Positions 7,066 to 63,816 of a stretch of 64,000 nucleotides of DNA are shown piece after piece. Position numbers and translations under genes: made by a program. Numbering within the stretch: position 1 is the stretch's first letter; each line of letters begins with the position of its first letter. Source of the DNA: a virus; the IMG/VR virus record IMGVR_UViG_3300035698_012408; one strand, 5' to 3'. The notes under the pieces are model-generated. The model did no database searches. It was not told where the DNA came from and saw nothing but the letters and a program-made list of their open reading frames with translations.

Positions 7066-8064
7066 TTATTCTCCCACGTCGTCGCCATGAGGGACATCCT
7101 CATGGGTTTCGACGGCGGGTTCTTCCTTGGTGACTGGCGGATGCTCAATCACTTCTTCAATTCCAGCCGTGGTCAGCCCGACCTCGCCCTCCTCTGCTTC
7201 CTCCGCGTCGGCGGCATATTGCTTGGCCGGCGATTCGGTCATCTCTGGCAGCTTAACCACGATCGGTTCCGGCGTGGGTAGGACTGCCTGCGGCGGCTCC
7301 GGGGCTTCCCCGGTCTCGATCCACTCCTGGAGCTTCTTGAGGGCCGCTCCATAGAGCAACTCTTCCTGCGGCGCCAGTTGCAGCTCGATGCGTCGCAACG
7401 ACTTATTGTCATCGGCTGGGTTATTCTTCCACTCCTCACCGGGGGCGACACGCTCACGTTCGGGCTCGTCGTCATCTCGATTGAGATCCTGCACGATGAC
7501 GTACTGCTTGAGATTGATGAACTGTGTCATCACCCACTGCGACAATTGCACCTCGCGAGGCACAGGTCGGAGCTGCGACGGCTGCATGTGATTGCCCACC
7601 GCCGAGGCGTCACCGTGAGCCATGTTCCTGATGGCCTCCACGATGTGTGGCGGCATCTGGCCGCCGGTCATTCCGATCGGTTGTCCGTCCGGGCCGAGCT
7701 GGTACATCTGGAACGCACCTTCCGGCGGTCCATCCGGCCCTGTCGGCATCGACGGCATCGACGGCTGAAACGCGGGTGGCTCCGGGACCGCTTCCAGCTG
7801 CCCGCTACCTGCCCGCTTAATCAATTGAACACTCAGCTGCGGCTGCAAATGATCAACCTCCAGCATAAGCGGCTTGTCCAGCGCTTCCCCCATATCGATC
7901 ACGACACGTTGATAACCCTCTTCGGTCGGCTCTTCGTGAATTTCCAGAACTTCCCCGCCCGTCCGGGACGTGCCCTGGAGTTGGGAGAAAATGTCGGGAT
8001 GCTGCCGTGAAATTGCCATGAGTGTTGCACCGGTCAGTGCAACGGTATCACCTACTCGAAACAT
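7066..8064 (-). CDS. hypothetical protein with a Pro-rich middle and an acidic C-terminus
   Basis: ATG after AGGAG. No family recognised. Confidence 0.45.
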   Translation of the reverse strand: MFRVGDTVALTGATLMAISRQHPDIFSQLQGTSRTGGEVLEIHEEPTEEGYQRVVIDMGEALDKPLMLEVDHLQPQLSVQLIKRAGSGQLEAVPEPPAFQPSMPSMPTGPDGPPEGAFQMYQLGPDGQPIGMTGGQMPPHIVEAIRNMAHGDASAVGNHMQPSQLRPVPREVQLSQWVMTQFINLKQYVIVQDLNRDDDEPERERVAPGEEWKNNPADDNKSLRRIELQLAPQEELLYGAALKKLQEWIETGEAPEPPQAVLPTPEPIVVKLPEMTESPAKQYAADAEEAEEGEVGLTTAGIEEVIEHPPVTKEEPAVETHEDVPHGDDVGE

Positions 8065-8073: not shown

Positions 8074-9924
8074 CTATCGAAGCCCTAAGACAGATCCTGC
8101 TACGCCTCGCATGAATCCACCCCAGATGCCAAGGTCTTGAAGTTTCGTCTGGCCGGCTGGCGTAAGCCCGCCCAATGCCCCAAGCACTCCACCAGCTATC
8201 CGCGCGGTGGCGAGATCCAGGCCGGCGTTAGCCAGCCCGGAGATAAAGTGCGTGGGTCGTAATATTGGAGCTCCACCATACATCTGCTGGACTCCAGTAA
8301 CAAGCCCTGACGCCGCAGCCGCAATGTACGGCGGCGTGTTGGGCGTCCCCATGCCGTACGGGTTCGCAGTTGAACTCTGCCGCCCGTTATGCACATCATT
8401 CCAAATCGCTCGATTGAACGAGTCTACCGGTACCTGTTTCAACGACACCCCTGCCGACCCACCATAGCCGGAGTAGGCCACCTTGCAAAATCCTTCAGCT
8501 GCTCGCATGAACAGCTCAGACGGCTGAGGCAACGCTGCCTTCGTCGCCTGCCAATCGCTCCCTTTGTAGAAATTATCCCGAAGCGTCAACTCATTCGGCG
8601 ACATCGGGACTTTCGCGTGTGGCGTCATCATCGTACCCATGAAACCCATCGGCTTCCCAGCCTCTCGGGCCATCCCAGCGTTTGCAAACGCTGGCGGGAC
8701 GCTGGACAACGCACCCATCCCTCCACCTAACATGGCCAACGTCCGACGAAGTCTGTTACGCCGAACGTACTTCTCGGGCAGCAGGTGCTCCAGCAGCGTT
8801 CCGCCGAGGTACCCTCCGCCCGCCCCGAGCAAGCCACCGACTATCGAATTGGTCAATGGCGAAGGCCCGCCTGTGGCGGCCCCAGCCCACTCATACGGCT
8901 TGTTCAAGATGCTCAATGCACCAGCCGCCGATTTGATCAACACCCAGTCATCCTGCCCGTGTGGGCCGTACTCCGACTCGGTTCTGACGCTATCCACGCC
9001 ACTGATGGCCTTCAACGCGTTAGCCCACTTCTGATGGACGTTGTCGCTGTCGCCATCCGACAAGATAGCCCAGAGCTGCTTTGTCTCGGGATTCCACCAC
9101 ACGTCACCATAACCGGGGTCAGATGATGCGGGCAGATACCTGATGACCTTCTTGACCGTCTTCTGGACCGTGGCCGCCTCTTTGTAGCGAGTAGCCACGA
9201 GCGCCGGGACAGCCATCCAGGCCTCCAGTTCTCCCTGCTTTTCGATACGTTGGATGGTCTCGTCTTGCACTTTCGACCATGCCTTCCTGGCGTCTACGCC
9301 GCGATCGTCAATGTAAATATCGGCAATCAGCTTATCGCTGGTGCCATCCGGCTGATCCGGGTTCTCGTTCACATAGTCCCACGGAATGTCGTGTTCGTCA
9401 AGATAGGTCTTCGTGAGTTCGTCATCTCCCCGCACCGTGTTAATGATAACACGCCAGCCGCGACCTTTGAACTCATCCAGAGCTTTTTTAGCCCCTGGAC
9501 GTGGCTTAGGGATGTCTTCGGGATCAAACTTATCATACATCTCTGCAATGGTCCCGTCCAGATCTACTGCCACGGTCGGGACCTTTTCACCGGCTTCTGC
9601 CTGCTTTATTGTATCATCCAGGCCAGCACTTCCATCCCATAGGCCGCGGAAGGCCGCCTGCCCAGCAATCCGCTGCGGAAGTCCTCCATCTGTAGATCGT
9701 AGGCCCGCCAGTGCTTTGCTACTGCTCTGCGTTGTTGCTGTGCGACCCACAACGCTCGACGCCTTTCTGCGCCCCGCGTTGCCTGCCGTTCTCGCTTCTG
9801 CCGTTTTTGCTGGCGTCGCGAGCAGCGTTCCGATTTGCCTTTGGACTTTCCCCGTTTGGTGACCCGTTCCTTTGGCTCGTCGCATCTCATGCGTCGTCTG
9901 TCTCCTATGTGTTGTGGCCATCAT
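8074..9924 (-). CDS. HAD-superfamily phosphatase domain (NT5C/deoxyribonucleotidase-like) fused to a large Gly-rich membrane-associated C-terminal region
   Basis: HAD motif I VAVDLDGTI, motif II IINTVR, motif IV IYIDDRG. The C-terminus has glycine-zipper-like helices (GGLLGAGGGYLGG, GGVLGALGG). Start ATG 9924 after GGGAG. Confidence 0.55.
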   Translation of the reverse strand: MMATTHRRQTTHEMRRAKGTGHQTGKVQRQIGTLLATPAKTAEARTAGNAGRRKASSVVGRTATTQSSSKALAGLRSTDGGLPQRIAGQAAFRGLWDGSAGLDDTIKQAEAGEKVPTVAVDLDGTIAEMYDKFDPEDIPKPRPGAKKALDEFKGRGWRVIINTVRGDDELTKTYLDEHDIPWDYVNENPDQPDGTSDKLIADIYIDDRGVDARKAWSKVQDETIQRIEKQGELEAWMAVPALVATRYKEAATVQKTVKKVIRYLPASSDPGYGDVWWNPETKQLWAILSDGDSDNVHQKWANALKAISGVDSVRTESEYGPHGQDDWVLIKSAAGALSILNKPYEWAGAATGGPSPLTNSIVGGLLGAGGGYLGGTLLEHLLPEKYVRRNRLRRTLAMLGGGMGALSSVPPAFANAGMAREAGKPMGFMGTMMTPHAKVPMSPNELTLRDNFYKGSDWQATKAALPQPSELFMRAAEGFCKVAYSGYGGSAGVSLKQVPVDSFNRAIWNDVHNGRQSSTANPYGMGTPNTPPYIAAAASGLVTGVQQMYGGAPILRPTHFISGLANAGLDLATARIAGGVLGALGGLTPAGQTKLQDLGIWGGFMRGVAGSVLGLR

Positions 9925-9943: not shown

Positions 9944-10672
9944 TTATTCGTCGAAATAGCACTCAAGGTCGGTGCCGGTAAACTCTTGCTTCAGTTCCGT
10001 GTAATTCTCAATCTGCGATGATAAGGATCTAATCCCTACCTTCACTGTATTGGTTGTAGGCGCCGGGCACAATGCCGGATCTACATCAAGATGCTCGTAG
10101 ATGCGACGCATATACCGCAGCGGGGCTGCACACAGCGACTCGTACGTCAAAACGAAAGAATCCGTATAAGCTAGGCCCGTGGTGGACTGGAGCTGACGAA
10201 TGGCGTCAATATCCTGACGCAACGCAGCAGAGTCCACAACCAGCCGCTGATTCCGAATACGCTCAGCTTTACGCCGCCACCCCGCCTGATGCCGTCGAAT
10301 CTGCCATTTCCTGTGATGATCACCCAATTGATGAGACACGAACCGCCGCAGCAGGTTCCACCGCTGAAGCACGATAACCTTCGTGTCTTGAGGTAACAGC
10401 TTAAACAGATCATTGTACTCACGTGGGTTAGTCCAATGAGGCTGCACCCCTTGCCAGCCGTGAAACATGTGCGCGACCGCCCCGGAGCCCTGTGTCGCCA
10501 ACGTCCGCTGAATGCGGGCACTCGTACTCATTCGCGGTCGACCCGCTTTCGCTCCAGGATTAAACACCTCGCCATCACACGCCAAGTCGGGATGAGAGTT
10601 GATCAAGCCGCGGAGCATGTGCGTGCCGCACCGTGGAAAGGTCAAGACTAAAAATCCCTTTGGTTTTGCCAT
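9944..10672 (-). CDS. sulfotransferase-family protein (paralog 1 of 4)
   Basis: 5'-PSB-like FPRCGTHMLRGLINSHP and 3'-PB-like RWNLLRRFVSHQL. C-terminus YFDE. Confidence 0.6.
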   Translation of the reverse strand: MAKPKGFLVLTFPRCGTHMLRGLINSHPDLACDGEVFNPGAKAGRPRMSTSARIQRTLATQGSGAVAHMFHGWQGVQPHWTNPREYNDLFKLLPQDTKVIVLQRWNLLRRFVSHQLGDHHRKWQIRRHQAGWRRKAERIRNQRLVVDSAALRQDIDAIRQLQSTTGLAYTDSFVLTYESLCAAPLRYMRRIYEHLDVDPALCPAPTTNTVKVGIRSLSSQIENYTELKQEFTGTDLECYFDE

Positions 10673-10688
10673 CTATTCAGTTCTCCGA

Positions 10689-11417
10689 CTATTCATTGAA
10701 ATAACACGCGATGTCAGTGTCTGCAAAACGCCTTTTCAATGACTCGTAATTGATTATCATGTCACGTAACGACCTACCCATATGCAGCGGTAGCGTCTCG
10801 GCTTCAATATTCTCGCAAGCATCCGGGTCCGCCCCGAGGTGCTCGTAAATGCGACGCATGTGAAACTCGGTGTGTAGACACAGCTGCTCATACGACACCC
10901 TGTAAGTATTTAGAAACTGGCAACCCCGCGTGGCTAGTATCACCCGAGCGGTGTGTATATCGCCTCGCAACCGCGCGGGGTCTAGCATCACACGTGCATC
11001 TCTTGCTTGCGTTACTAGAACCTGTGCATCACGCTTACTTCGCGTGACGTTCCATACGCTCTTCCTCGCCAACCGCCCCGACGCATACCGTCGCAATAGA
11101 TTCCACCGCTGAATGCACACGACTTTCGTGTCCAATGGTACTTGCTTGAACAAGTCGGCAAACCTAGTTCGTCGCCCTTTCGGCCAGCCGGTACAAGCAT
11201 GAGCTATCATACCAGTAAGCGGCCCCTGCCAATATTCATTTAGGCGAGCCTGCACGCCCCCTGATTCCTTGAACCTGCTAGGATCAAATACCTCATCATG
11301 ACACGTAATGGCTGGGTGTGCATTGAGCAGCGACCGTAAAAAATGACTGCCACTTCTCGGATACGAGAGTAACAGAAATCCTTGCTTACCTTCAGGGAAC
11401 ACCAAACGATCACTCAT
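10689..11417 (-). CDS. sulfotransferase-family protein (paralog 2 of 4)
   Basis: YPRSGSHFLRSLLNAHP and RWNLLRRYASGRL. The start ATG 11417 overlaps the upstream stop as ATGAGTGA. Confidence 0.6.
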   Translation of the reverse strand: MSDRLVFPEGKQGFLLLSYPRSGSHFLRSLLNAHPAITCHDEVFDPSRFKESGGVQARLNEYWQGPLTGMIAHACTGWPKGRRTRFADLFKQVPLDTKVVCIQRWNLLRRYASGRLARKSVWNVTRSKRDAQVLVTQARDARVMLDPARLRGDIHTARVILATRGCQFLNTYRVSYEQLCLHTEFHMRRIYEHLGADPDACENIEAETLPLHMGRSLRDMIINYESLKRRFADTDIACYFNE

Positions 11418-12159
11418 CAAAATAACACGCAAGGTCAGTGCCCGCAAAATGCTTCTTCACCTTTCCATAATTGGTCACTATCTCCCGGATCGGCCGATCC
11501 GCGTTAAGCACCATCGTCTTGGCCTTCACGTGCTTGCACGCATCCGGGTCAGCCCCGAGGTGCTCGTAAATCCGCCGAATATGTTCTTCAGTATTAGCTC
11601 GCAGCTGCTCGTACGTTACCAGATGAGTATTCACGAATTGCAGCCCGAGCGTGGCCAATATTGCTCTGGTGACATCTACATCCAGTCGCAACTTCACCAC
11701 GTCCACACGGATTGTCTGGGTTCTCGCAGCCTCCGCACGGGCTTCAGCGTTGTCCGAACCAGTCATCACCGTCCACTCGTTACTCGCCTGCGCCAGTAAA
11801 TGCGATACGTGCCGTCGAAACAGGTTCCACCGCTGGATGCACACGATCTTCGTGTCCAGCGGCAGCGTCGGGAATAATCCGGCGAAACCACTCTTTGCCC
11901 GCCACACGCAGTCACGCTCCCCACGCCAACCAATATACGCGTGGGCAATCATGCCCGTGAGCGGCCCTTTCCAATACTGGATCAGTCGCTGCTCTACATG
12001 CCCCGGTTCCGGGTAAAGTTCACGGTTAAATATCTCGCCGTGACACTTGATGTCCGGGTGCTCGTTGAGAAGCGATCGCAGGAAATGACTACCACTTCTC
12101 GGATACGAAAGTAGCAGAAATCCTTGCTTGTCTTTGGGAAATGCTAACCGATTACTCAT
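11410..12159 (-). CDS. sulfotransferase-family protein (paralog 3 of 4)
   Basis: YPRSGSHFLRSLLNEHP and RWNLFRRHVSHLL. The start overlaps the upstream stop as ATGAGTAA. Confidence 0.6.
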   Translation of the reverse strand: MSNRLAFPKDKQGFLLLSYPRSGSHFLRSLLNEHPDIKCHGEIFNRELYPEPGHVEQRLIQYWKGPLTGMIAHAYIGWRGERDCVWRAKSGFAGLFPTLPLDTKIVCIQRWNLFRRHVSHLLAQASNEWTVMTGSDNAEARAEAARTQTIRVDVVKLRLDVDVTRAILATLGLQFVNTHLVTYEQLRANTEEHIRRIYEHLGADPDACKHVKAKTMVLNADRPIREIVTNYGKVKKHFAGTDLACYFDE

Positions 12160-12901
12160 CGAAATATGGCTCCATGTCTGTACCCATGCACTGGGCTTTC
12201 AGCTCTTCGTAATTTGTTACCTGTTGACTAATCGGCACCCGGGCAAACCGCACTGACGTGGTCGTAGGATTTAACTGCTTACCAGGATCTACGCCAAGGA
12301 ACTTGTAAATATCCCACATGACCCGCTTGGGCGTGCTGCAAAGCTGCTCATAGGTAATGTGTATAGCATTTTGAAACCGTAGCCCGATCGTGGACTGTGC
12401 GGCTCTGGCCATGTCCACGCTGGTACGCAGAGCACCAAGCGGAATATTTACCGTAGTCCTGTCGTACTCATCCCGCCGAAACTTCCCTGGTGCGTTAGTC
12501 CTTGCCTCCCACGCCCTGCACTTCAATGCCATGCGGTCAGACACGTAGCGTCGCAACAGATTCCAGCGATGCAGCACCACGCAAACCTGCTCAGGCCTAA
12601 AGCTAACCAGCGGCTCGGCCTTCAACATATCGGCCACGCCCGTCTCTATCCACGCCGTCTTGTCAAGCGTGTACTGGCACGTCATGTGATGCGTGTAACC
12701 AACGTGCTTCCCAGCACTGTAATGCTCCAAGACGTTCGCCACCGTGTGAGGCTGTTTCACCTTTTTTGTGTAATGCGACAGCACATTGAACAGCTCGCCG
12801 TGACAGTGCAAGTCTGGATGCGAGTTAATGTAATCGCACATCAGATGCGTCCCAGAACGTGGGAGCGACAACAGCACAAATCCTCGTTTAGACCCTGCCA
12901 T
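12152..12901 (-). CDS. sulfotransferase-family protein (paralog 4 of 4, most divergent)
   Basis: LPRSGTHLMCDYINSHP and RWNLLRRYVSDRM. ATG 12901 overlaps the GT stop (TAATG). Confidence 0.55.
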   Translation of the reverse strand: MAGSKRGFVLLSLPRSGTHLMCDYINSHPDLHCHGELFNVLSHYTKKVKQPHTVANVLEHYSAGKHVGYTHHMTCQYTLDKTAWIETGVADMLKAEPLVSFRPEQVCVVLHRWNLLRRYVSDRMALKCRAWEARTNAPGKFRRDEYDRTTVNIPLGALRTSVDMARAAQSTIGLRFQNAIHITYEQLCSTPKRVMWDIYKFLGVDPGKQLNPTTTSVRFARVPISQQVTNYEELKAQCMGTDMEPYFDE

Positions 12902-13833
12902 TACAAATACTTCTCCAATAACTGCGCCCACTTCTTATGGAACGTCGCCAACCCGAATCGTTCACGTGCGATTTCGACATTTGGCGGTGAGCCTGCCAAT
13001 GCCTTCTTAACAAATCCTGCCAATACGTTCGCGGAAACTACTGCTCCGCGTTTCGGTGGAATCCTTGTCACCATGTCAGCGAACTCTTTGCAGCTGGCAC
13101 GTGCGGAAACCACCACCCGCTTACCCATGCACGCAGCTTCGAGCACACAGTATGGGAATGCTTCATTATGTGACGGCACGCACAACACATCAGTTGCACG
13201 ATAGACGTCGCCCGGCGTATCAGTGTACCCTTGCAACGTCGTCCACCGATTATTCAACCGCCGGGAGCCTGCGACACCCTGACCAGACAGCAGTGCCGGC
13301 TCCTGCAACTTCCGGGCAGCCTTGGCCACCGCAACGGCATTCTTCAGCCCCGAGTTTCTACCAACAAACCCCAACAGGAACTGCTCCCCGTACTTCTCGC
13401 GTAGGTCCTCGCCGACGCGGTCCAACCGCTCACAATCAACACCGTTCGTGATCGTCAACGGCTCTCGGCCGAGAGTCTTCCTCATGTTCCCCGCTACGGG
13501 TGACGAAACAGCGACCAACACGTCGGCGGCCTTCATAGCATCCACCCAGCCAGCGTGCCACTTGTTACGGTGATGCCGCACGCAGATCTGCACGCCGCCA
13601 ACCCGTTTGGTCACGCCGCCACTGGAATCGATGATCACCTTCGCGTCAGTGATAACACCTTGCTGCCACTCCAGCCCTGCCGCTGTAAGCCGCGCAAGTG
13701 CCGCGGGTAGAATCATCGGACCCTGAACACGGACACGCATACCGATAGACTGCAAGTAAGGGGCTAGGCTTAACACCCATGTGAGTCCCCCGCCGCAGTC
13801 CAATTTCTTGAATGCAAATGCTATATCGATCAC
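12901..13833 (-). CDS. GT-B glycosyltransferase (GT4/GT1-like), paralog 1
   Basis: C-terminal motif HNEAFPYCVLEAACMGKRVVVS (E-x7-E type). The N-terminus is homologous to the next gene. GTG 13833 overlaps the upstream TGA (GTGA). Confidence 0.6.
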   Translation of the reverse strand: MIDIAFAFKKLDCGGGLTWVLSLAPYLQSIGMRVRVQGPMILPAALARLTAAGLEWQQGVITDAKVIIDSSGGVTKRVGGVQICVRHHRNKWHAGWVDAMKAADVLVAVSSPVAGNMRKTLGREPLTITNGVDCERLDRVGEDLREKYGEQFLLGFVGRNSGLKNAVAVAKAARKLQEPALLSGQGVAGSRRLNNRWTTLQGYTDTPGDVYRATDVLCVPSHNEAFPYCVLEAACMGKRVVVSARASCKEFADMVTRIPPKRGAVVSANVLAGFVKKALAGSPPNVEIARERFGLATFHKKWAQLLEKYL

Positions 13834-14768
13834 AGATACTTCTCCAATAACTGCATCCACTTTTTGTAGAATAATGGCAGCCCGAAACGCTCTCGGGCTA
13901 CCGCAACGTCGGGAGGCGGGCCTGCCAATGCCTTCTTCACATGTGCTACTATTGCCTCTGCCGTCGGAGTAGTCCTGGCATGCTGCACTTCGATTCGCGT
14001 AACCATATCAGCGTACTCTTCGCAATGTGCGCGAGCTGATACCACCACACGTTTACCGAGACACAGAGCTTCTACCACCGAGAATGGGAAGGCTTCGTGC
14101 TTGGATGGCACGCACATGACGTCAGCGGCTCGATAGACATCGCCTATCGTGGTCGTGTAACCAATCAACTGCGTGTAGTCGTTCTTCAGTCGACTATCCC
14201 CAGCAATGTTACCGCCCGCAAAGATAGCATGGCGATTGAATAGCTTGGCCGCCTTGGCTATCTGTGCTGCGTTCTTCAACTGAGAGTTACGACCGACGAA
14301 CCCCATCAGAAACTCACGACCGAACTTTTTACGCAGGTCCACACCAACCTTGTCCAGACGGTCAATGTCCACGCCGTTGTTGATGACCACGGGCATTCGC
14401 CCAGTGTATCGACGGGTGTTATGAGCCACCGGGATAGACACGGCGACGATTTCATCCGCTTTCTTCGTAGCCTTCACCCAACCACTCAGCCACGTCCGCC
14501 GGCTATGCCGCACGGCGATGACAGGGCCATCATGCTCCCGTGCTACCTTGCAGCCACTGGAGTCGATCACGATGCGGGTATCCTTGATGACACCGATCTC
14601 GAACGGGATGCCCGCTGCTGTCAACGTGGCTATCGCCGTTGGAAACAGCTTCGGTCCCTGGACACGGACGGTCACGCCCTGTGACTGAAGATAAGAGGCG
14701 AGCGAGATTACCCAGGTAAGCCCACCGCCATTATTTAATCCGCGGAACGCGAACGTGATGTCGGTCAT
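13830..14768 (-). CDS. GT-B glycosyltransferase (GT4/GT1-like), paralog 2
   Basis: KHEAFPFSVVEALCLGKRVVVS. It ends LLEKYL like its paralog and has an ATGA overlap with the upstream gene. Confidence 0.6.
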   Translation of the reverse strand: MTDITFAFRGLNNGGGLTWVISLASYLQSQGVTVRVQGPKLFPTAIATLTAAGIPFEIGVIKDTRIVIDSSGCKVAREHDGPVIAVRHSRRTWLSGWVKATKKADEIVAVSIPVAHNTRRYTGRMPVVINNGVDIDRLDKVGVDLRKKFGREFLMGFVGRNSQLKNAAQIAKAAKLFNRHAIFAGGNIAGDSRLKNDYTQLIGYTTTIGDVYRAADVMCVPSKHEAFPFSVVEALCLGKRVVVSARAHCEEYADMVTRIEVQHARTTPTAEAIVAHVKKALAGPPPDVAVARERFGLPLFYKKWMQLLEKYL

Positions 14769-15319
14769 GCCTTCTCCAGATAGAAGATCGTTTCCTTCCG
14801 ATACGTATCCTCGTGGTGGATATGCCCTTTGAGCATCTCACGCAGATCCGCTTCGCATAACCGAATGTTTGGAATGATGTGGCCTTCCCAGTTATCGTCC
14901 CTGACGTTCGTGTCCGTCTCGGCCATTCGCAAGAACAACACCAACGTCATCCGTTTCGTGTAGGACTTGAGAGCGTTTTCGAGAATCTTCCGCCAGTTGA
15001 CGTTATGTTCCAACACGTGACGCATGTTGAGGCAGGGCACGCGGGAGGTGTAGACTTCGAGATCCTTCAGGTAATCACAGAATCCCGCAGTGCCATCAAC
15101 GCCGATATATTCCGGCCGATCGGCTGGGGGCACCATGTTGTGCAGCACCTTCTCGAAGTCGCGGCAACCGCAGCCCCAGTCTTCAATCATGCCGTTGCCT
15201 TCCAGCCACGCGACAGATCGCCGATAGGAAGTTTTGCGTCCGTAGTCCCGCCGATGCGCTCCGTCTTTATAACACGGCGACCACTTACCGGCTCCACTTT
15301 CTTCTCTTGACTTCCCCAC
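14765..15319 (-). CDS. class I SAM-dependent methyltransferase
   Basis: Motif I IEDWGCGCRDF, motif II YIGVDG, then MRHVLEHN. GTG start 7 nt after AAGGAG. Confidence 0.55.
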   Translation of the reverse strand: MGKSREESGAGKWSPCYKDGAHRRDYGRKTSYRRSVAWLEGNGMIEDWGCGCRDFEKVLHNMVPPADRPEYIGVDGTAGFCDYLKDLEVYTSRVPCLNMRHVLEHNVNWRKILENALKSYTKRMTLVLFLRMAETDTNVRDDNWEGHIIPNIRLCEADLREMLKGHIHHEDTYRKETIFYLEKA

Positions 15320-15329: not shown

Positions 15330-16760
15330 TTAAATAATTCGACTTAGTAATTGTGCCACAGGCGATGCCTGCTTTACGAGAAATCCATCCGTGCCAGCCC
15401 CGACACGTGTCCCACCACTCCGCCCATTGTCTCCTGGGACATGAAGCCCATCCTGCCCGGCGGTTCCCGATCTGGAGCTCGCCCCACCACTTGGTCGTGA
15501 TCCTCCCGGAAACTCCGTGGTGCCAGCTCTCTTGGTGGTGGCATTAGGCCCTGCGGCAGGTCCTGCACCTCGTCCATGATCGGCGTGTTCGAGGTCACTC
15601 CGCGAATCCGATCGGCTGCACGTGACAGACCATGTGGCTGTCTTGGTTCGGGCAACGGCTCCAGCATTGCTGGCCGCGTGTGCAACTGCGGCGGTTCGTG
15701 AGACCGTGGCGGCTCCTGCTGGTACAGCGAATGGAACGACTGGAACGCGTGCTCCTGCGGCTCCACCGGCAGATCCCGACTTAGTTGCTCCACCTGCCGC
15801 CCGTCCTCCGTCATTATCCAAGACACTCCGATGAACCTCGGGTCGCTGTACATGTGCTTCCGTTGCGGTCGCGAGACGATCCACAGCGGACCCCCGGGCG
15901 GAGGTGGCGGGGTCCACAGTTGCGGCAGCGACAACACCCGGGACGGCGGCTCCACCAGCTTTGCTAGTGGCGGAGGTAACGGCTTCTCCGGTGGCAGCTT
16001 GATCAGACCCAAATCCCCCGACTTTATAACGCGGATCACGATATGATCGCCAGTCTCGGATCGCATCGAGGACTTGATTTCCTGTCTGAGCCTTCGACGC
16101 ATCCCCCGACTGGCTATCGGCTGCGTAACTGGTTGATTCACTTGCGTTTGTGTCATAGAAACTGCTCCCGCTCTTCCCAAAAACTGGTATGTTTTCGTGA
16201 ATTGGATCGGTACTTAGAAACCGTCCAGGGTTATGAATCAGGCTGCCCTTTTTGACATTGCCAGCCTGAAGGACTCGCTTCTTGCGAATCGCGAAGGTGC
16301 TATGGAACTTGAACTCGCCGTTCTTCGGCAGGCCGCTCAGTCCATAACTTTTACGTAGCTTCTCCAGCTCGGGGCTGTGGATTTCGATCATCCAACACTT
16401 GGAGACGTCATCCCAGCCGTGAGGTGATACTGCCCGCACTGGGCCCAACGTGTAACCGAAGGACTTACCACGTTCTGTTATCTTATCACCTCCACCGATT
16501 TCGTCAATCTCTTCTTTCCGCATTACCGAGACATGAGCCCTATAATTCCCAGAATCTTGCTTGGGTACCTCGGTCCCTGGCTCATTCAACGCTTGGAACG
16601 CACCATGCCCTAAGGCGTTCGGTACGTCCATCAGGAGCCACCCGGAGGCAGATAGGTAGAGTTTGCCCTGGAGCGAGTACGAAAGCTCAGGGGCAGCCGC
16701 AGCCATCTTGCGACCGCCCCGAGCTTCGCAACCTTGGCGGGTTGTATCAGTCATTGACAT
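15330..16760 (-). CDS. 2H phosphoesterase (LigT/cyclic phosphodiesterase/Acb1-like fold) N-terminal domain; 3' extent doubtful
   Basis: Two H-x-[ST]-x motifs (AHVSV and FHSTF) lie about 80 aa apart. The second sits in the LigT-like context ELEKLRKSYGL....FKFHSTFAI. There is no in-frame stop until 15330, but everything after about 16230 overlaps another plausible gene. Confidence 0.5.
   Translation of the reverse strand: MSMTDTTRQGCEARGGRKMAAAAPELSYSLQGKLYLSASGWLLMDVPNALGHGAFQALNEPGTEVPKQDSGNYRAHVSVMRKEEIDEIGGGDKITERGKSFGYTLGPVRAVSPHGWDDVSKCWMIEIHSPELEKLRKSYGLSGLPKNGEFKFHSTFAIRKKRVLQAGNVKKGSLIHNPGRFLSTDPIHENIPVFGKSGSSFYDTNASESTSYAADSQSGDASKAQTGNQVLDAIRDWRSYRDPRYKVGGFGSDQAATGEAVTSATSKAGGAAVPGVVAAATVDPATSARGSAVDRLATATEAHVQRPEVHRSVLDNDGGRAAGGATKSGSAGGAAGARVPVVPFAVPAGAATVSRTAAVAHAASNAGAVARTKTATWSVTCSRSDSRSDLEHADHGRGAGPAAGPNATTKRAGTTEFPGGSRPSGGASSRSGTAGQDGLHVPGDNGRSGGTRVGAGTDGFLVKQASPVAQLLSRII
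15374..16156 (-). CDS. hypothetical Pro-rich protein (alternative frame inside the 15330..16865 ORF)
   Basis: ATG 16156 lies 52 nt downstream of an exact 14-mer copy. Its composition is more protein-like than the Ala/Gly/Ser-rich tail of the overlapping frame. Its stop leaves a normal 54-nt leader before the next gene. Confidence 0.4.
   Translation of the reverse strand: MTQTQVNQPVTQPIASRGMRRRLRQEIKSSMRSETGDHIVIRVIKSGDLGLIKLPPEKPLPPPLAKLVEPPSRVLSLPQLWTPPPPPGGPLWIVSRPQRKHMYSDPRFIGVSWIMTEDGRQVEQLSRDLPVEPQEHAFQSFHSLYQQEPPRSHEPPQLHTRPAMLEPLPEPRQPHGLSRAADRIRGVTSNTPIMDEVQDLPQGLMPPPRELAPRSFREDHDQVVGRAPDREPPGRMGFMSQETMGGVVGHVSGLARMDFS
16209..16222. promoter_or_regulatory. copy 2 of the 14-nt motif
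   Basis: Exact GGTTTCTAAGTACC on the minus strand. Confidence 0.6.
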
Positions 16761-18162: not shown

Positions 18163-21100
18163 TTACGTTGTCGCTGGTGCGACGTTAGCCGGCGTTGCCG
18201 CCGCCTGTGATGTTCGCCATTTGTACCAAAGATCCAAAAACTGATCCTGCTGCTCCGGCGCCACGATGTCCTCCATCATGCCAGATCGCAATCCGGTGAC
18301 GTCGCCCGCGAAGCCAATAACTGAATTACCCCAGCTGCCAAAGCCAGCAGCTCTGTCAAGTTGTTCCTGCTGATCAGGCCCGACCGCATTAAACACGGCC
18401 TCAAGTGCGTGTTCGCCGCCTTGGCCGCCGCGAAGTGCCATCGCCACCATCGGCTTCACTGCCGCCTTCATTGCGTCGGACATCGGCTCCGGTGGAGACA
18501 CCACGTCACTGCCCGCCTCGTACACCTCCTCGGCTCCTGGCTCGAACTGATCTCGCACGAAACCCTGGACGCCTTCTCCGAACATGCCTTGGCGTGCCAG
18601 CGGATAGGCTGCTCCGGCTAACCCTAGCAGGGCCATAAGCCAACTTCCAATACCGCCGCCGTCCTTGCTGGTCATCGCGGACACCAGACCGAGCAGACCA
18701 ACGCCTGCACCGCCATAGAGCAAGACCTGCTCCCAGGTGTCCATGCTTTCGAGCATCCCGCCCACTTCTTCCTCCGGTACGCCTTCAGCCACCAACGCGG
18801 CCGCTGCGTCGTCTGTGACCACCTGCGGTACCGGCTGATCATTTGCAACAGTCTGCACGATCGCCTGCTTATCGGGATCAGCAAATAGGCCAGTTATCGA
18901 CTCGCCAGCTTGATCCAGGTACTCTTGAGCCCTCTCCGGGAACTCGTTTACGAGGCCCGGTATGCCCATACTCTCAAACAGCCCTTCGATCGGGCGTAGC
19001 GGCAGATTCTGCTCTACCCCGGCTTCAGGCTGCTGTGGTCCTTGAACCGGTGCCCCAGGCTGCTGTGGTCCTTGAACCGGTGCCCCAGGCTGCTGTGGTC
19101 CTTGAACCGGCGCTCCGGGCTGCTGTGGTCCTTGCGCCGGCGCTCCGGGCTGTTGCGGACCTTGAACCGGCGCAGGTGGCGGCGTGGGCTGCGCAGGTGG
19201 CTGCGCAGGCTGCTGGGGTCCAGCCACCGGCGTGGCGGGTGTGTTAGGTGGTGTGGGTGTGTTAGGTGGTGTGGGTGTGGTAAGTGGTGCAGTCACCGGA
19301 GGTACCGACGAAACGGGTGGAGCCGCTACCGGCTCCACTGGTGGTGCTGCTGCGGGTGCGGCCGGCCCGGGCACGTTCGGCGTGGCACCAGGGAAGAACG
19401 TCTCCGTACCCTGCGGCAACGTCGTCGCCATCGGTACGTTGCCAAGCATCTCGGCCGGAGGCAGTGTCGCTGGTGGCGTCGGTACGCCTGCTGCCATCTT
19501 CACCCACGACTGTTGCTTCTCCCGCCCGTAGGCCCGGAGCAGGTCCTGCTGTGCTTGTTGCTGGGCTGCCATATCCGCAGCTTGCTCAATCTGAGCTTCG
19601 CTGATTCCCGGTTGGCCGCCGTACTGCTCTGTCAACATCACCTTATATTGCTTAGCGTATTCAGCCACCCGTTGCTCGCCACCCGTCTGCAACGCTTCAC
19701 GCGGTGTCGTGGCAAGTTGCTCTCGATCAAAATCTACAGCAAAGTCAGCGGGATTAGCAGGCTCTACCACTCCGGTGCGTTCCAGCCATCGCTGCGTACC
19801 GCCGCTCTGCTGCTGGTGATTTTCACGCATCCCCTGAACAGCGCCACCTCCGGCCGTCCACTTCAGTGGGATAGTCAGATCTTTAAGACCCTTGGTAACA
19901 GACGGATTCATTCCGGGAATCCTCTGCGACGCGCCAGACATACCACGAAGTGCCGCCCAGGACGGAAGATCTTCTACGACCCCGGCACCTGCCTCAGTAA
20001 GCATTCGCTGAGCTATATTTGCCCCGGGCTGGTTTCCTATCTCGCGAATGCGATCTGCCCCAAGCTGTTGGTAATCACCAAGATTACCGCCGCCGGGCAT
20101 CGGCACGCCATCGATACCGATCTGTATCCCTTCATACGCCGGTGCGAGTGCTTGATACTTAGCGAGCGTATTGAGTGTCGGTTGGAACCCTTTAATACCC
20201 TTCCCCAAACCCCCGAACGCCAGCGACTGAGCAACCTGTGGAGCTGCCTCGACACCGCGGCCAACCATCCGTTTAAGACCACGCCCGACGGGGCCACTCT
20301 CCAATGCCCCTTCCGACAAATCACGACGCGCGCCCGCCCGCCCGGTTCGCGTATCGCGAGCCAGCTGCCCAAGATACTTCATCCGCTGCAACATGTCTTC
20401 CCGAGATGCCTGCGGAAGACTCTGATCTATAGCCCCTTGCATAAGCCGCGGCGCACTGTACTCCGTTAGCTCGCTCATCTGATTCAGTTGTGTCTGGGCG
20501 TCAGCGTCGCCGGCACCAGCGGCTGCGCGTAGTTCATCCAGTCGGTCGCCATTGCTCAACATCTGTCGCGCATTGTGCGAGTTCCCGCGATTCACATCCT
20601 CCATCGCTAGGGTGCGTGCGAACTCTTCTGGATGGCGATTTGCTTCACGCATCTGACCACCGTAGTCGCCCAAGCTCCCCTGCGCGCTGTTCGGATGCAG
20701 CCCCACCCTTGCCGCGTGCGGATTGATACCTTCTCTCAGTGGTGTCAGAATGGGCGAGATAAGGTCATTCAAACCACCTAACGCTCCGGTGTCTGGATTT
20801 TCACCTGTAGCCGCAGCAGACATTCGACCCCCAAGCGGTCCGAGTGTCCTCAACGCGACCAGTGCCTGAGGTATATTTAGAGCGCCACGACCTACATTAG
20901 ATGCTATATCACGAGCCATATCCCCACCGGTACGTCGATCATTCGCCACCGCGTAGGAATTAGCTGCATACTGTGCTGCCTCATCGCCCAACGGCGCGAG
21001 ATTCAATATATGATTACCACGCTCTCCCCCCGGTGCCGTGGTCTTCTGCCCAAAGAAAAACCCGGCGCCTGGAGCTTGCCCGACCGGGATAGGTGCCAAG

Positions 21101-22809: not shown

Positions 22810-22925
22810 CGCACACGCCCTCCTTGGGTGCAAAAGAGGTTGCTGCTGGGAACCAGCTTGGTCCCACGGTGTTAATCATACCCCAACTCTCACCGCAATG
22901 CGAGAGGAGTCAAGAATATCGCCCA

Positions 22926-63815: not shown

Positions 63816-63816
63816 A

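What the first reader, a model, noticed from the sequence alone, without database searches (positions are those of the whole stretch)
9944..15319. Translationally coupled cassette of four tandem sulfotransferase paralogs, two GT4 paralogs and a methyltransferase
Four consecutive ORFs carry PAPS-binding-like motifs: P-R-[SC]-G-[ST]-H...L[LI]N.HP and RWNL[LF]RR.[VA]S. All end in YF[DN]E.

Three of the junctions reuse stop-start overlaps (ATGAGTGA, ATGAGTAA, TAATG), which is the signature of tandem duplication.

Upstream of them in the operon are two paralogous GT-B glycosyltransferases. Both have the E-x7-E motif, both end LLEKYL, and they have GTGA and ATGA overlaps. A class I SAM methyltransferase precedes these.

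In a phage-like context this predicts an element-encoded pathway that builds a sulfated and methylated glycan. To my knowledge a block of four sulfotransferases is not a described feature of phage genomes.

Possible targets are virion proteins, the host envelope or capsule (seroconversion or superinfection exclusion), or hypermodified DNA. No PAPS-synthesis genes are present in the window, so host PAPS would be used.
Basis: partly seen in the sequence, partly recalled or inferred. Interest (0 to 1): 0.8.

Follow-up and report, generated by a model that had tools for sequence, protein, structure and literature searches.

The report
Phage operon with four sulfotransferases
A large uncultured tailed phage carries an operon of one methyltransferase-like protein, two sugar-adding enzymes and four sulfate-adding enzymes, which most likely builds a heavily sulfated sugar structure, something not yet shown for any phage.

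Summary
On the minus strand of 9944-15319 lie seven tightly packed genes: a 184-aa class I methyltransferase-fold protein, two GT4 glycosyltransferases (60% identical) and four PAPS-type sulfotransferases (33-56% identical). Five of the six junctions are stop/start overlaps.

All four sulfotransferases pass Pfam Sulfotransfer_3. They keep the PAPS-binding motifs and a Glu that aligns with the TPST catalytic base. The ST1 model matches only sulfotransferases in the PDB.

The context is a tailed phage. The window encodes a portal homologous to Salmonella phage Arash gp204 (E 5e-61). An Arash-like fused RNA polymerase subunit lies just outside the window. Contigs reach 215-230 kb.

Three further phage lineages carry the same core (methyltransferase-like, GT4, sulfotransferase) at the same position, but with 1-2 glycosyltransferases and 1-2 sulfotransferases. 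The four-copy array is therefore the largest seen in a birth-and-death family.

Single sulfotransferases are already annotated in phages and giant viruses. I found no tandem array and no characterised viral sulfotransferase.

The acceptor is unknown. It could be protein glycan, lipid or envelope glycan, or DNA. The best reading is a cytoplasmic pathway that uses host PAPS to make a multiply sulfated, possibly methylated glycan.

The parts
14765..15319 (-). 184-aa small class I SAM methyltransferase-fold protein; first gene of the conserved core
   Evidence: It has no Pfam hit of its own. It has more than 280 homologs, and 23 of 36 aligned members hit Methyltransf_23. The AF2 model has pLDDT 91.7, and all top 50 Foldseek PDB hits are SAM methyltransferases, with TMq typically 0.4-0.65. 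Motif I reads EDWGCGCRDF, so the third Gly is replaced. D75 at the end of beta-2 is invariant. An AAGGAG sequence lies 7 nt upstream of the GTG start.
13830..14768 (-). GT4a, a GT-B glycosyltransferase of 312 aa with E-x7-E
   Evidence: Pfam: Glycos_transf_1 48 bits, Glyco_trans_1_4 46.3 bits, Glyco_transf_4 29.3 bits. PHROG 2170 glycosyltransferase. Its ATG overlaps the MT stop (ATGA). It has no TM segment and a pI of 9.8.
12901..13833 (-). GT4b, a paralogous GT-B glycosyltransferase of 310 aa with E-x7-E
   Evidence: It is 60% identical to GT4a. Pfam: Glyco_trans_1_4 40.7 bits, Glycos_transf_1 37.4 bits. Its GTG start overlaps the GT4a stop (GTGA).
12152..12901 (-). ST1, a PAPS-type sulfotransferase of 249 aa; the most divergent copy
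   Evidence: Sulfotransfer_3 41.4 bits over the full length. The AF2 model has pLDDT 84.4. All top 50 Foldseek PDB hits are sulfotransferases, including TPST2, Stf0 and 3-OST. TAATG junction with GT4b.
11410..12159 (-). ST2, a PAPS-type sulfotransferase of 249 aa
   Evidence: Sulfotransfer_3 40 bits and Sulfotransfer_1 27.9 bits. It is 56% identical at the protein level and 63% at the DNA level to ST3, and the pair has 100/100 bootstrap support. ATGAGTAA overlap with ST1.
10689..11417 (-). ST3, a PAPS-type sulfotransferase of 242 aa; recent duplicate of ST2
   Evidence: Sulfotransfer_3 37.7 bits. ATGAGTGA overlap with ST2.
9944..10672 (-). ST4, a PAPS-type sulfotransferase of 242 aa; last copy
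   Evidence: Sulfotransfer_3 34.5 bits. It follows a 16-nt spacer containing GGAG. Its closest relative is the last ST of the two-copy array in related phage L015 (53% identity).
15330..16754 (-). Conserved upstream neighbour: protein with a 2H phosphoesterase (2H-SAK) domain and a low-complexity C-terminus; link to the cassette unknown
   Evidence: Pfam 2H-SAK 34.3 bits. The same gene precedes the cassette in all related phages. There it is fused to InPase and SET domains.
8074..9921 (-). Conserved downstream neighbour: 615-aa protein with a HAD phosphatase-like domain and a Gly/Ala-rich C-terminus; link to the cassette unknown
   Evidence: PHROG 1238, E 2e-22. NCBIfam BT0820-family HAD phosphatase, E 4e-9. 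Proteins of about 590-611 aa or more occupy the same position in three related lineages; in L034 the call at this position is 497 aa.

Best explanation
The region is a co-directional, probably translationally coupled operon of a large (at least 215 kb) uncultured tailed phage. The phage is distantly related to Salmonella phage Arash.

The operon encodes seven soluble cytoplasmic enzymes:
- a small class I SAM methyltransferase-fold protein;
- two GT4 (GT-B, E-x7-E) glycosyltransferases;
- four PAPS-dependent sulfotransferases of the NodH/Stf0/TPST-like Sulfotransfer_3 group.

The most likely mechanism is as follows:
1. During infection the GT4 enzymes use host NDP-sugars to put one or two sugars on an acceptor.
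2. The methyltransferase-like protein methylates the sugar or the acceptor.
3. The four sulfotransferases use host-made PAPS to sulfate different hydroxyls or residues of that glycan. This gives a multiply sulfated, strongly anionic glycoconjugate.

The methyltransferase-GT4-sulfotransferase trio is a conserved core of this phage clade. Gene copy number changes by tandem duplication and loss, with 1, 2 or 4 sulfotransferases and 1 or 2 glycosyltransferases. This suggests the product is under diversifying pressure, as surface or conflict-related molecules are.

The acceptor is not determined. My ranking is:
1. a phage protein, such as a virion or ejected protein with Pro/Thr/Ser-rich linkers;
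2. a lipid or envelope glycan;
3. a small molecule;
4. DNA.

What is shown: enzyme families, folds, conserved catalytic motifs, phage identity, synteny and copy-number variation. What is inferred: that the enzymes act on one common product, the use of host PAPS, different regiospecificity of the paralogs, and the acceptor.
For: **Enzyme identity**
- All four sulfotransferases exceed the Sulfotransfer_3 gathering score.
- A profile of the four hits TPST1/2 (E 1.9e-8) and NodH 9vki (E 1.4e-7) in the PDB.
- The ST1 model matches only PAPS sulfotransferases.

**Catalytic residues**
- R15 and G17 (5'-PSB), R112 and S121 (3'-PB), E36 and H72 (ST1 numbering) are invariant in the four paralogs. In a 16-sequence alignment with more distant family members all but H72 stay invariant, and H72 is conserved in at least 90%.
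- E36 aligns with the second Glu of the TPST 'CGEE' motif, with the same Arg-to-Glu spacing of 21 residues. All four copies therefore look active.

**Link between the sulfotransferases and glycan synthesis**
- The nearest non-phage relative is a Candidatus Peribacter protein that fuses a GT2 domain to three sulfotransferase domains. Sources name it glycosyltransferase or 'LPS sulfotransferase NodH'.
- Cellular family members sit next to GT2 and GT8 genes and further sulfotransferases. L025 has three within 8 kb.

**Conserved core**
- The order 2H-SAK protein, MT-like, GT4, ST, 65-aa protein, then a large protein of about 500-610 aa recurs in L010/L027 (GT x2, ST x1), L015=L034 (GT x1, ST x2) and L036 (GT x1, ST x1).
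- The seven phage sulfotransferases analysed form one clade (96/100 bootstrap), and ST2+ST3 pair at 100/100.

**Location of the enzymes**
- No TM segment is found in any of the seven proteins.

**Phage identity**
- The portal homolog of Arash gp204 scores E 4.6e-61.
- The fused beta/beta' RNA polymerase subunit is 31% identical to Arash gp206 over 96% of its length.
- A tubulin/TubZ-like protein and a thymidylate kinase are also present.

**Other observations that fit**
- Further glycan genes lie elsewhere in the window: Methyltransf_24, a third GT4, a GT32-like DXD enzyme and two weak GT hits.
- Mucin-like Pro/Thr/Ser-rich proteins that could serve as acceptors are present at 39348-42059 and 18163-22833.
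Against: - No acceptor, product or activity has been shown. Everything about the product is inferred from family membership and gene order.
- Gene adjacency does not prove a shared substrate.
- None of the sulfotransferases or glycosyltransferases approaches any NCBIfam equivalog cut-off. Sugar, position and acceptor therefore cannot be read from homology.
- The best PDB E-values are to protein-tyrosine sulfotransferases, not carbohydrate sulfotransferases.
- The methyltransferase-like protein lacks the third Gly of motif I and has no Pfam hit itself. It could be inactive or could act on something else.
- In other phage-like contigs this methyltransferase family lies among nucleotide-metabolism genes. 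That fits a DNA-directed role as well as a glycan one.
- No major capsid or terminase gene was seen in the roughly 80-85 kb inspected. Timing (early or late) and virion association are unknown.
Confidence: 0.55

Rival explanations
1. Host-envelope remodelling. The cassette builds a sulfated glycolipid, or sulfates and extends a lipid-linked envelope glycan (LPS, capsule or glycolipid) of the infected cell. This would block superinfection, change surface charge, or alter lysis and adsorption properties.
For: - The weak best NCBIfam matches of the GTs are to cell-envelope enzymes: TuaC, LPS GlcNAc transferase, GlcNAc-phosphatidylglycerol synthase and MshA/BshA.
- Source names for sulfotransferase relatives are 'LPS sulfotransferase NodH'.
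- Weak hits to NoeE and Stf0, which sulfate a lipo-oligosaccharide and a glycolipid precursor.
- Peripheral GT4 enzymes often act at the membrane on lipid acceptors (established knowledge).
Against: - The cassette and its conserved neighbours contain no flippase, polymerase, Und-P-linked initiating transferase or any membrane protein.
- The phage looks like a large virulent-type phage with its own RNA polymerase, not a lysogenic converter.
- The cassette is a core, syntenic part of the phage clade rather than a sporadic moron.
Confidence: 0.2
2. Protein tyrosine sulfation. The four enzymes are TPST/RaxST-like sulfotransferases that sulfate tyrosines of phage or host proteins. The neighbouring GTs act independently.
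For: - The best sequence and Foldseek E-values are to TPST1/2.
- The PRSG[ST]...HPD..C.GE segment is nearly identical to the TPST 5'-PSB and catalytic Glu segment.
- The nearby acidic 332-aa protein (7066-8064, pI 4.4) has Tyr residues in acidic contexts.
Against: - Only two short stretches align to TPST, whereas NodH aligns over residues 7-157.
- TM-scores are higher to Stf0 (0.50-0.54) than to TPST (0.41-0.44).
- The closest cellular relatives are fused to or clustered with glycosyltransferases.
- A sulfotransferase is always adjacent to a GT4 in all four phage lineages.
Confidence: 0.1
3. DNA hypermodification. The GT-B enzymes glycosylate a modified base in phage DNA, as T4 does. The methyltransferase-like protein and the sulfotransferases then decorate the sugar. 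This would give sulfated glycosyl-DNA that resists host nucleases.
For: - In other phage-like contigs the small methyltransferase-like family sits among nucleotide-metabolism and replication genes: Thy1/ThyX, dCMP deaminase, dATP/dGTP pyrophosphohydrolase and DnaB. In L020 it also sits beside three GTs.
- This phage encodes thymidylate kinase, dUTPase/dCTP deaminase and an N6/N4 DNA methyltransferase.
- The GTs and sulfotransferases are all basic, with pI 9.0-9.8.
- Both GTs give weak hits to GT4-conflict.
Against: - No pyrimidine hydroxymethylase or thymidylate-synthase homolog was found in the roughly 80-85 kb inspected.
- Sulfated DNA has no precedent.
- Cellular relatives of the sulfotransferases lie in glycan clusters.
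- The cassette neighbours are proteases and a polyvalent-type protein, not nucleotide enzymes.
Confidence: 0.08
4. Small-molecule product. The cassette makes a soluble sulfated, methylated sugar or glycoside, for example a compatible solute or a signal, rather than decorating a macromolecule.
For: - Structural similarity to Stf0, which sulfates free trehalose (TMq 0.50-0.54).
- The GT4 family includes MshA and BshA, which glycosylate small acceptors.
- All the enzymes are soluble.
Against: - Four sulfotransferases for one small molecule is hard to rationalise.
- The copy-number turnover among close relatives looks more like an arms-race trait.
- There is no transporter or precursor-synthesis gene nearby.
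Confidence: 0.07

Closest known systems
NodH / NoeE (rhizobial Nod-factor sulfotransferases) and Stf0 (mycobacterial trehalose 2-sulfotransferase)
   Same: - PAPS-type fold.
- 5'-PSB and 3'-PB motifs.
- The NodH structure 9vki aligns over residues 7-157 of the profile.
- Stf0 gives the highest TM-scores.
- Sources label relatives of the family 'LPS sulfotransferase NodH'.
   Different: - Scores are far below the equivalog cut-offs: Stf0 16 bits against 400, NoeE at most 29 bits against 500.
- The genes are phage-encoded.
- There are four tandem copies.
- They are coupled to GT4 enzymes and a small methyltransferase rather than to nod or sulfolipid genes.
Protein-tyrosine sulfotransferases (TPST1/2)
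   Same: - Best E-values by both sequence profile and Foldseek.
- The PRSGT...HPD.RCGEE segment is nearly identical, including the Glu that aligns with the TPST catalytic base.
   Different: - Only two short segments align.
- TMq is only 0.41-0.44.
- The genomic association is with glycosyltransferases.
- No evidence for peptide substrates.
Synechan (xss) sulfated exopolysaccharide cluster of Synechocystis PCC 6803
   Same: - Glycosyltransferases and more than one sulfotransferase sit in one cluster that makes a sulfated glycan.
- That cluster has two sulfotransferases and eight glycosyltransferases. Its authors note that such clusters are otherwise unknown in bacteria (PMC8205485).
   Different: - xss also has a Wzx flippase, Wzy polymerase, co-polymerase and regulators. 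The phage cassette has none of these.
- The phage cassette has four paralogous sulfotransferases and lies in a phage genome.
Virus-encoded glycan machineries: mycobacteriophage virion glycosylation (Freeman et al. 2023, PMC10527164, seen in the reference list) and chlorovirus PBCV-1 A064R, a GT-GT-methyltransferase protein (PMC9614988 and PMC5408694, listed). Details are recalled from memory; the papers were not read here.
   Same: - Soluble virus-encoded glycosyltransferases, with a sugar methyltransferase in PBCV-1.
- They act in the cytoplasm on virion proteins.
   Different: - I found no report of sulfation in those systems.
- They lack sulfotransferase genes in the cluster.
- There is no sequence relationship.
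Candidatus Peribacter GT2 + 3x sulfotransferase fusion protein (P0125, 1047 aa)
   Same: - It is the closest non-phage relative (E 2e-42).
- It combines several tandem sulfotransferase modules of the same family with a glycosyltransferase.
   Different: - It is a single cellular polypeptide with a GT2 domain, not GT4.
- About 25-30% identity or less, by analogy with the other outgroups (not computed for P0125).
- It has no methyltransferase.
Sulfotransferase genes already annotated in viruses (Synechococcus phage S-SCSM1, uncultured Caudovirales, Hokovirus, Marseillevirus LCMAC, Lymphocystis disease virus 3)
   Same: They have a sulfotransferase fold and a viral origin (Foldseek against BFVD).
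   Different: - They belong to different sulfotransferase families. tblastn found no match for window ST2 or for nine diverse members of the present family in 50,697 GenBank phage records.
- I did not inspect their gene neighbourhoods, so whether any sits in a tandem array or next to a GT4 or methyltransferase is not known.
- None has been characterised, as far as my literature searches show.

Membership tests
PAPS-dependent sulfotransferases (Pfam Sulfotransfer_3, PF13469) | Score above the curated Pfam gathering threshold | tested here: met
   ST4 34.5, ST3 37.7, ST2 40.0 and ST1 41.4 bits against a cut-off of 27.
PAPS-dependent sulfotransferases (Pfam Sulfotransfer_3, PF13469) | 5'-phosphosulfate-binding loop (P-loop-like PxxGxx) and 3'-phosphate-binding Arg...Ser motif | tested here: met
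   PR[SC]G[ST]H and RWNL[LF]RR.[VA]S are present in all four. R15, G17, R112 and S121 are invariant in the four paralogs and in a 16-sequence family alignment.
PAPS-dependent sulfotransferases (Pfam Sulfotransfer_3, PF13469) | Sulfotransferase alpha/beta fold | tested here: met
   The ST1 AF2 model has pLDDT 84.4. All top 50 Foldseek PDB hits are sulfotransferases with probability 0.96-1.00. ST2-ST4 are covered by homology only.
PAPS-dependent sulfotransferases (Pfam Sulfotransfer_3, PF13469) | Catalytic base in position | tested here: met
   The invariant E36 aligns with the second Glu of TPST 'CGEE'. That this Glu (E99 of TPST2) is the catalytic base is recalled from the literature and was not checked here.
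PAPS-dependent sulfotransferases (Pfam Sulfotransfer_3, PF13469) | PAPS-dependent sulfotransfer activity | not testable with these tools
   Needs an enzyme assay.
Stf0 (trehalose 2-sulfotransferase) and NoeE (Nod-factor sulfotransferase) equivalogs | Score above the NCBIfam equivalog cut-off | tested here: not met
   Stf0 NF047724 scores 16.4 bits against 400. NoeE NF052394 scores at most 28.8 bits against 500. The proteins are not members of these specific families.
Protein-tyrosine sulfotransferase (TPST) | Full-length similarity to TPST | tested here: not met
   Only two short stretches align: profile positions 13-36 and 166-197. TMq is 0.41-0.44.
Protein-tyrosine sulfotransferase (TPST) | Peptide (Tyr) acceptor | not testable with these tools
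   Needs an enzyme assay.
GT4 glycosyltransferases (GT-B, retaining) | C-terminal Glycos_transf_1 / Glyco_trans_1_4 domain above the gathering threshold | tested here: met
   GT4a 48.0 and 46.3 bits; GT4b 37.4 and 40.7 bits; cut-offs 26.4 and 27.
GT4 glycosyltransferases (GT-B, retaining) | E-x7-E motif | tested here: met
   E225-x7-E233 in GT4a and the aligned pair in GT4b.
GT4 glycosyltransferases (GT-B, retaining) | N-terminal Glyco_transf_4 domain | tested here: inconclusive
   GT4a scores 29.3 bits against 28.5, so it passes. GT4b scores 19.7 bits, so it does not.
Class I SAM-dependent methyltransferases | Rossmann-like methyltransferase fold | tested here: met
   The AF2 model has pLDDT 91.7 and pTM 0.88. 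All top 50 PDB hits are SAM methyltransferases.
Class I SAM-dependent methyltransferases | Match to a curated methyltransferase model | tested here: inconclusive
   The window protein has no Pfam or NCBIfam hit. 23 of 36 aligned homologs hit Methyltransf_23, with a best E of 2e-6.
Class I SAM-dependent methyltransferases | Motif I GxGxG and an acidic residue at the end of beta-2 | tested here: inconclusive
   Motif I reads EDWGCGCRDF. The third Gly is replaced here and in the closest relatives. D75 in YIGVDG is invariant.
Tailed phages (Caudoviricetes) | Portal protein | tested here: met
   Window 53936-56053 matches the annotated portal gp204 of Salmonella phage Arash by tblastn: E 4.6e-61, 26.5% identity over 474 aa.
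Tailed phages (Caudoviricetes) | Major capsid protein and large terminase | tested here: inconclusive
   Neither was recognised by PHROGs, Pfam or tblastn against Arash, in the window plus about 17-20 kb beyond its ends covered by three overlapping fetched loci.
Phage DNA glycosylation systems (T4-like) | Enzyme that makes a hydroxymethyl-pyrimidine acceptor | tested here: inconclusive
   No thymidylate-synthase or hydroxymethylase homolog was found in the region inspected (same calls). The rest of the genome was not seen.

The most novel reading that the evidence does not exclude
The cassette decorates the phage's own DNA. GT-B enzymes would glycosylate a modified base, and the methyltransferase-like protein and the four sulfotransferases would then methylate and poly-sulfate the sugar. 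This would be the first sulfated nucleic-acid modification. A less radical but still new reading is that the phage coats virion or ejected proteins with poly-sulfated O-glycans. That would be the first virus-built sulfated glycan.
Probability: 0.08. Interest if true: 0.95.

Novelty: new variant of a known kind. Interest (0 to 1): 0.6.

Why it matters
Sulfated glycans are rare in bacteria. The synechan authors state that, apart from cyanobacterial polysaccharides and a few lipo-oligosaccharides, none are known (PMC8205485). My literature searches found no characterised phage or virus sulfotransferase.

A conserved methyltransferase-GT4-sulfotransferase core in a new clade of large phages would extend virus-encoded glycobiology to sulfation. 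Its sulfotransferase count varies between 1, 2 and 4 among close relatives.

It would also provide:
- a compact set of paralogous sulfotransferases, possibly with distinct regiospecificities, for glyco-engineering;
- a concrete, clonable seven-gene system to test what phages gain from poly-anionic glycans, for example receptor masking, nuclease or defence evasion, virion stability in saline habitats, or metal binding.

It also draws attention to an almost entirely uncharacterised phage lineage with a portal and fused RNA polymerase of the Arash type and a tubulin homolog.

Tried and rejected
**Searches that found nothing**
- blastn of the region against GenBank phages: no match.
- tblastn of ST2, and of nine diverse members of the sulfotransferase family, against 50,697 phage records: no match.
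- IMG/VR scans with ST2 and with the clade alignment: no true relatives. The one weak hit, L007, was not pursued.
- GTDB genome scan with the clade alignment: no relative, so there is no host clue.
- Metagenome scan: it only recovered the continuation of the same deep-sea-sediment contig (L027 = L010) plus distant family members.
- Word-index protein search with ST1: it found only itself. The exhaustive profile search was needed to find relatives.
- tubulin homolog against phages: no match.

**Context annotation that gave little**
- PHROGs and Pfam on about 60 window ORFs left most unannotated.
- PDB sequence searches with the 1556-aa, 903-aa and 584-aa proteins gave nothing useful. The idea that the 584-aa protein is a chimallin-like nuclear-shell protein has no support.
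- Whole-genome tblastn against Arash found only the portal and RNA polymerase, so the relationship is remote. About 10 kb of Arash (100-110 kb) was not fetched.

**Other checks**
- The sigma-70 promoter and terminator scan gave nothing above chance. This is expected for a phage with its own RNA polymerase.

**Ideas rejected**
- That the four sulfotransferases are a non-sulfotransferase P-loop family.
- That the four copies arose by one lineage-specific fourfold duplication: they are monophyletic in 0 of 100 bootstrap replicates.
- That the element is a plasmid or a chromosomal island: it has a portal and a phage-type RNA polymerase.

**Not verified**
- The sample habitat of JGI 3300005935 and 3300025736 could not be confirmed from the literature.

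Full report
**1. What is in the sequence**

The minus strand of 9944-15319 carries seven consecutive ORFs:
- a 184-aa protein, 14765-15319;
- two proteins of about 310 aa, 13830-14768 and 12901-13833;
- four proteins of 242-249 aa, 12152-12901, 11410-12159, 10689-11417 and 9944-10672.

I read the junctions directly.
- ATGA, GTGA, TAATG, ATGAGTAA and ATGAGTGA are stop/start overlaps.
- Only the last junction (ST3/ST4) is a 16-nt spacer, with a GGAG.
- AAGGAG precedes the first gene.

One small exception is that ST1 reads YINSHP rather than L[LI]N.HP.

**2. What the proteins are**

*Sulfotransferases.*
- All four small paralogs exceed the curated Sulfotransfer_3 threshold, at 34.5-41.4 bits against 27.
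- A profile of the four finds TPST1/2 (E 1.9e-8) and the NodH structure 9vki (E 1.4e-7, aligned over positions 7-157) in the PDB.
- An AlphaFold model of ST1 built on a 40-sequence alignment has pLDDT 84.4.
- In the PDB it matches only PAPS-dependent sulfotransferases: TPST2, Stf0, 3rnl, 3-OST and SULTs.
- R15/G17 (5'-PSB loop), R112/S121 (3'-PB motif), E36 and H72 are invariant in the four copies; in a 16-sequence family alignment all but H72 stay invariant.
- E36 aligns with the second Glu of TPST 'CGEE', with the same Arg-to-Glu spacing. From memory, that Glu is the TPST2 catalytic base.
- All four copies therefore look catalytically competent.

*Glycosyltransferases.*
- The two 310-aa proteins are 60% identical.
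- They are GT4-type GT-B glycosyltransferases with E-x7-E.

*Methyltransferase-like protein.*
- The 184-aa protein has no Pfam or NCBIfam hit itself.
- It belongs to a family of more than 280 small proteins. 23 of 36 aligned members hit Methyltransf_23.
- Its model has pLDDT 91.7 and matches only class I SAM methyltransferases.
- Motif I (EDWGCGCRDF) has lost its third glycine in this protein and its closest relatives. The fold is certain, but activity is not.

*Location and specificity.*
- None of the seven proteins has a TM-like segment.
- The glycosyltransferases and sulfotransferases are basic, with pI 9.0-9.8.
- No NCBIfam equivalog comes near its cut-off. Donor, acceptor and position cannot be read from homology.

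**3. What the element is**

The window is 64 kb of genes that are almost all on one strand. It has no tRNA and very few PHROG or Pfam hits.

The decisive evidence came from outside the finding.
- About 7-8 kb beyond the low end of the window, the same contig encodes a 1481-aa protein. It combines RNA polymerase beta (Rpb2_6) and beta' (Rpb1_2) domains.
- A 633-aa Rpb1_5 protein follows it.
- The fused subunit matches gp206 of the isolated Salmonella phage Arash over its full length (31% identity, 96% coverage). It also matches three 187-kb Vibrio phages.
- Comparing all window ORFs with the Arash genome then showed that window 53936-56053 (705 aa) is homologous to the Arash portal protein gp204 (E 4.6e-61).
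- Arash is a published 'orphan' phage (PMC10585845).

Other features fit a large tailed phage only remotely related to anything isolated.
- A tubulin/TubZ-like GTPase at 50292-51455.
- A thymidylate kinase.
- dUTPase/dCTP deaminase and an N6/N4 DNA methyltransferase just beyond the high end of the window.
- Contig lengths of 215 and 230 kb.

No capsid or terminase gene was recognised in the roughly 80-85 kb I could inspect. The 'phage-like context' is nevertheless supported.

**4. Relatives and evolution of the cassette**

*Where the cassette recurs.*
- The identical cassette occurs in several independent assemblies.
- Using the methyltransferase-like protein and GT4a as handles, I found three further related phage lineages with the same gene order. 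That order is: 2H-SAK polyvalent-type protein, MT-like, GT4, ST, a 65-aa protein, a large protein of about 500-610 aa, then an M10 peptidase and a trypsin-like protease.

| Lineage | Source | GT4 genes | ST genes |
|---|---|---|---|
| Window phage | this window | 2 | 4 |
| L010/L027 | deep-sea sediment assembly SDBU | 2 | 1 |
| L015 = L034 | Logan SRR12613172, JGI 3300037628 | 1 | 2 |
| L036 | Logan ERR10503146 | 1 | 1 |

- In L010 the sulfotransferase was mis-called at an internal Met. Its real GTG start overlaps the GT stop.
- The MT-GT4-ST trio is therefore a conserved core of this phage clade. The window phage has the largest array.

*Phylogeny.*
- The seven sulfotransferases from three of these lineages form one clade against the nearest outgroups (96/100 bootstrap).
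- ST2 and ST3 are a recent pair (56% protein identity, 63% DNA identity, 100/100).
- ST4 is closest to the last copy of the two-copy array (53%).
- The four window copies are never monophyletic (0/100).
- The overlapping ...YFDE-stop / Met-Ser... junction is also present in L015.
- The array is therefore an old tandem family evolving by birth and death, not one recent fourfold duplication.
- The GT pair is 85% identical in L010 but 60% here. This suggests independent duplication or gene conversion.

**5. Wider family**

- The exhaustive profile search found 6199 cluster representatives at E below 1e-3. Beyond the phage clade, the best hit is only E 2e-42.
- That best hit is a Candidatus Peribacter protein fusing a GT2 domain to three sulfotransferase domains. 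Sources name it glycosyltransferase or 'LPS sulfotransferase NodH'.
- Two cellular contexts I inspected place family members beside GT2, GT8 and YdjC genes and further sulfotransferases. L025 has three within 8 kb.
- This ties the family to glycan sulfation rather than protein sulfation, although TPST gives the best PDB E-values.
- The methyltransferase-like family elsewhere lies in phage-like contigs. In L020 it sits beside GT2, GT2 and GT17 genes, Thy1 and DnaB. In L022 it sits among thioredoxin, a sigma factor, a Thy1-like gene and dCMP deaminase.
- That pattern keeps a DNA-directed role alive as a minority hypothesis.

**6. Mechanism**

The best-supported reading is a cytoplasmic assembly line.
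1. The GT4 enzymes add one or two sugars from host NDP-sugars.
2. The methyltransferase-like protein methylates.
3. The four diverged sulfotransferases sulfate distinct positions using host PAPS.

- No ATP sulfurylase, APS kinase or PAP phosphatase was detected in any scanned ORF.
- The window also encodes a Methyltransf_24 protein (37382-38017, E 6.8e-20), a third GT4 (52033-53085), a GT32-like DXD enzyme (63138-63920) and two weak GT-like proteins. The phage therefore invests broadly in glycan chemistry.
- Possible protein acceptors exist. The 903-aa protein at 39348-42059 is a repetitive Pro/Ala/Ser/Thr-rich protein. The 1556-aa protein at 18163-22833 has TPTPPN and GPQQPGAP repeats.
- No flippase, polymerase or membrane protein accompanies the cassette. 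This weakens, but does not exclude, an envelope target.
- No hydroxymethylase was seen. This weakens a DNA target.
- I rank the acceptors as: phage protein glycan, then lipid or envelope glycan, then tyrosine, small molecule and DNA. None of this has been shown.

**7. Novelty**

- Sulfotransferase-fold proteins are already annotated in viruses. Examples are Synechococcus phage S-SCSM1, several uncultured Caudovirales, Hokovirus, Marseillevirus LCMAC and LCDV-3.
- Metagenomic AMG lists also mention them. The mere presence of a sulfotransferase in a phage is not new.
- Window ST2 and nine diverse members of this family find nothing in 50,697 GenBank phages. The phage clade itself is absent from IMG/VR.
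- No paper in the library uses 'phage', 'viral' or 'virus-encoded sulfotransferase'.
- Even in bacteria, a cluster with two sulfotransferases was reported as unusual (PMC8205485).
- A conserved phage MT-GT4-ST core that expands to four tandem sulfotransferases is therefore a new variant of a known kind, namely virus-encoded glycan-modifying clusters.
- Its product, if confirmed, would be the first virus-made sulfated glycan.

**8. Verdict**

- Observation: confirmed.
- Interpretation: supported for enzyme identities, tandem-duplication origin, phage context and lack of PAPS genes in the window.
- The product and target remain inferred.
- Interest is 0.6. This is solid and unusual, and directly testable by expressing seven genes, but it rests on annotation-level evidence with an unknown acceptor.

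Noticed in passing
window 53936-56053 (-): A 705-aa protein homologous to the portal protein gp204 of Salmonella phage Arash (tblastn E 4.6e-61, 26.5% identity over 474 aa). PHROGs and Pfam did not recognise it. It is the only structural hallmark identified in the window.
   Followed up: yes
L012 15354-19799 and from 21040 on (same contig, roughly 7-12 kb beyond the low end of the window): A 1481-aa protein fuses RNA polymerase beta (Rpb2_6) and beta' (Rpb1_2) domains, and a 633-aa Rpb1_5 protein follows. The same architecture occurs in Arash gp206/gp216 and in Vibrio phages D181, D148 and D69. It is an unusual compact two-gene multisubunit-type RNA polymerase.
   Followed up: partly
window 50292-51455 (-): A tubulin/FtsZ-family GTPase (Pfam Tubulin, E 3e-11). 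Its closest solved relatives are RepX/TubZ and CetZ. tblastn finds no match in GenBank phages. It may be a phage cytoskeletal or segregation protein.
   Followed up: partly
window 39348-42059 (-), the GC-rich stretch (0.65) at 39-41 kb: A 903-aa repetitive Pro/Ala/Gly/Ser/Thr-rich, mucin-like protein. Its N-terminal ~100 residues hit five unknown-function PHROGs. The DNA has tandem repeats of 48 and 66 nt. It is a possible glycosylation acceptor.
   Followed up: partly
window 18163-22833 (-): A 1556-aa protein with no database match, TPTPPN and GPQQPGAP repeats (30-nt DNA tandem repeat at 19026-19173) and a hydrophobic Gly-rich C-terminal region. Related phages have counterparts of 1051-1067 aa or more.
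   Followed up: no
window 37382-38017 (-), 52033-53085 (-), 63138-63920 (-), 23944-24951 (-), 23189-23905 (-): Additional glycan-related genes are scattered through the window: a Methyltransf_24 protein (E 6.8e-20), a third GT4, a GT32-like DXD glycosyltransferase (Gly_transf_sug, E 6.8e-11), and weak Glyco_trans_1_2 and GT25 hits.
   Followed up: no
window 15330-16754 (-) and L010 7765-9999, L034 3902-6202, L036 5178-7457: The gene just upstream of the cassette encodes a 2H phosphoesterase 'Swiss Army Knife' domain protein. In the relatives it is a roughly 750-aa polyvalent protein that also carries InPase and SET domains. In the window phage those domains are missing and the C-terminus is low-complexity.
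   Followed up: no
window 8074-9921 (-): A 615-aa protein with a basic N-terminus, a HAD-type phosphatase domain (BT0820 family) and a long Gly/Ala-rich glycine-zipper-like C-terminus. It is conserved directly downstream of the cassette in three related lineages; in L034 the call at that position is 497 aa. A second glycine-zipper protein lies at 29256-29738.
   Followed up: no
window 4320-6008 (-), 30251-30895 (-), 45178-45828 (-): A trypsin-like serine protease (Trypsin_2), a papain-family cysteine protease domain and a thymidylate kinase. In related phages an M10 metallopeptidase with a PG-binding domain sits next to the trypsin-like gene. The window phage has no such gene there.
   Followed up: no
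whole window 1-64000: Essentially all plausible genes lie on the minus strand, with steadily negative GC skew. There is no tRNA. Most ORFs have no PHROG or Pfam match. This is a very poorly charted phage lineage.
   Followed up: partly
L020 2265-6549 (Logan SRR35788915; NCBI JAITZC010000937.1): In an unrelated phage-like contig, a homolog of the small methyltransferase-like protein sits directly after GT2, GT2 and GT17 genes and a 181-aa ORF. ThyX and DnaB are nearby. The MT-like/GT association may therefore be more general than this clade.
   Followed up: no
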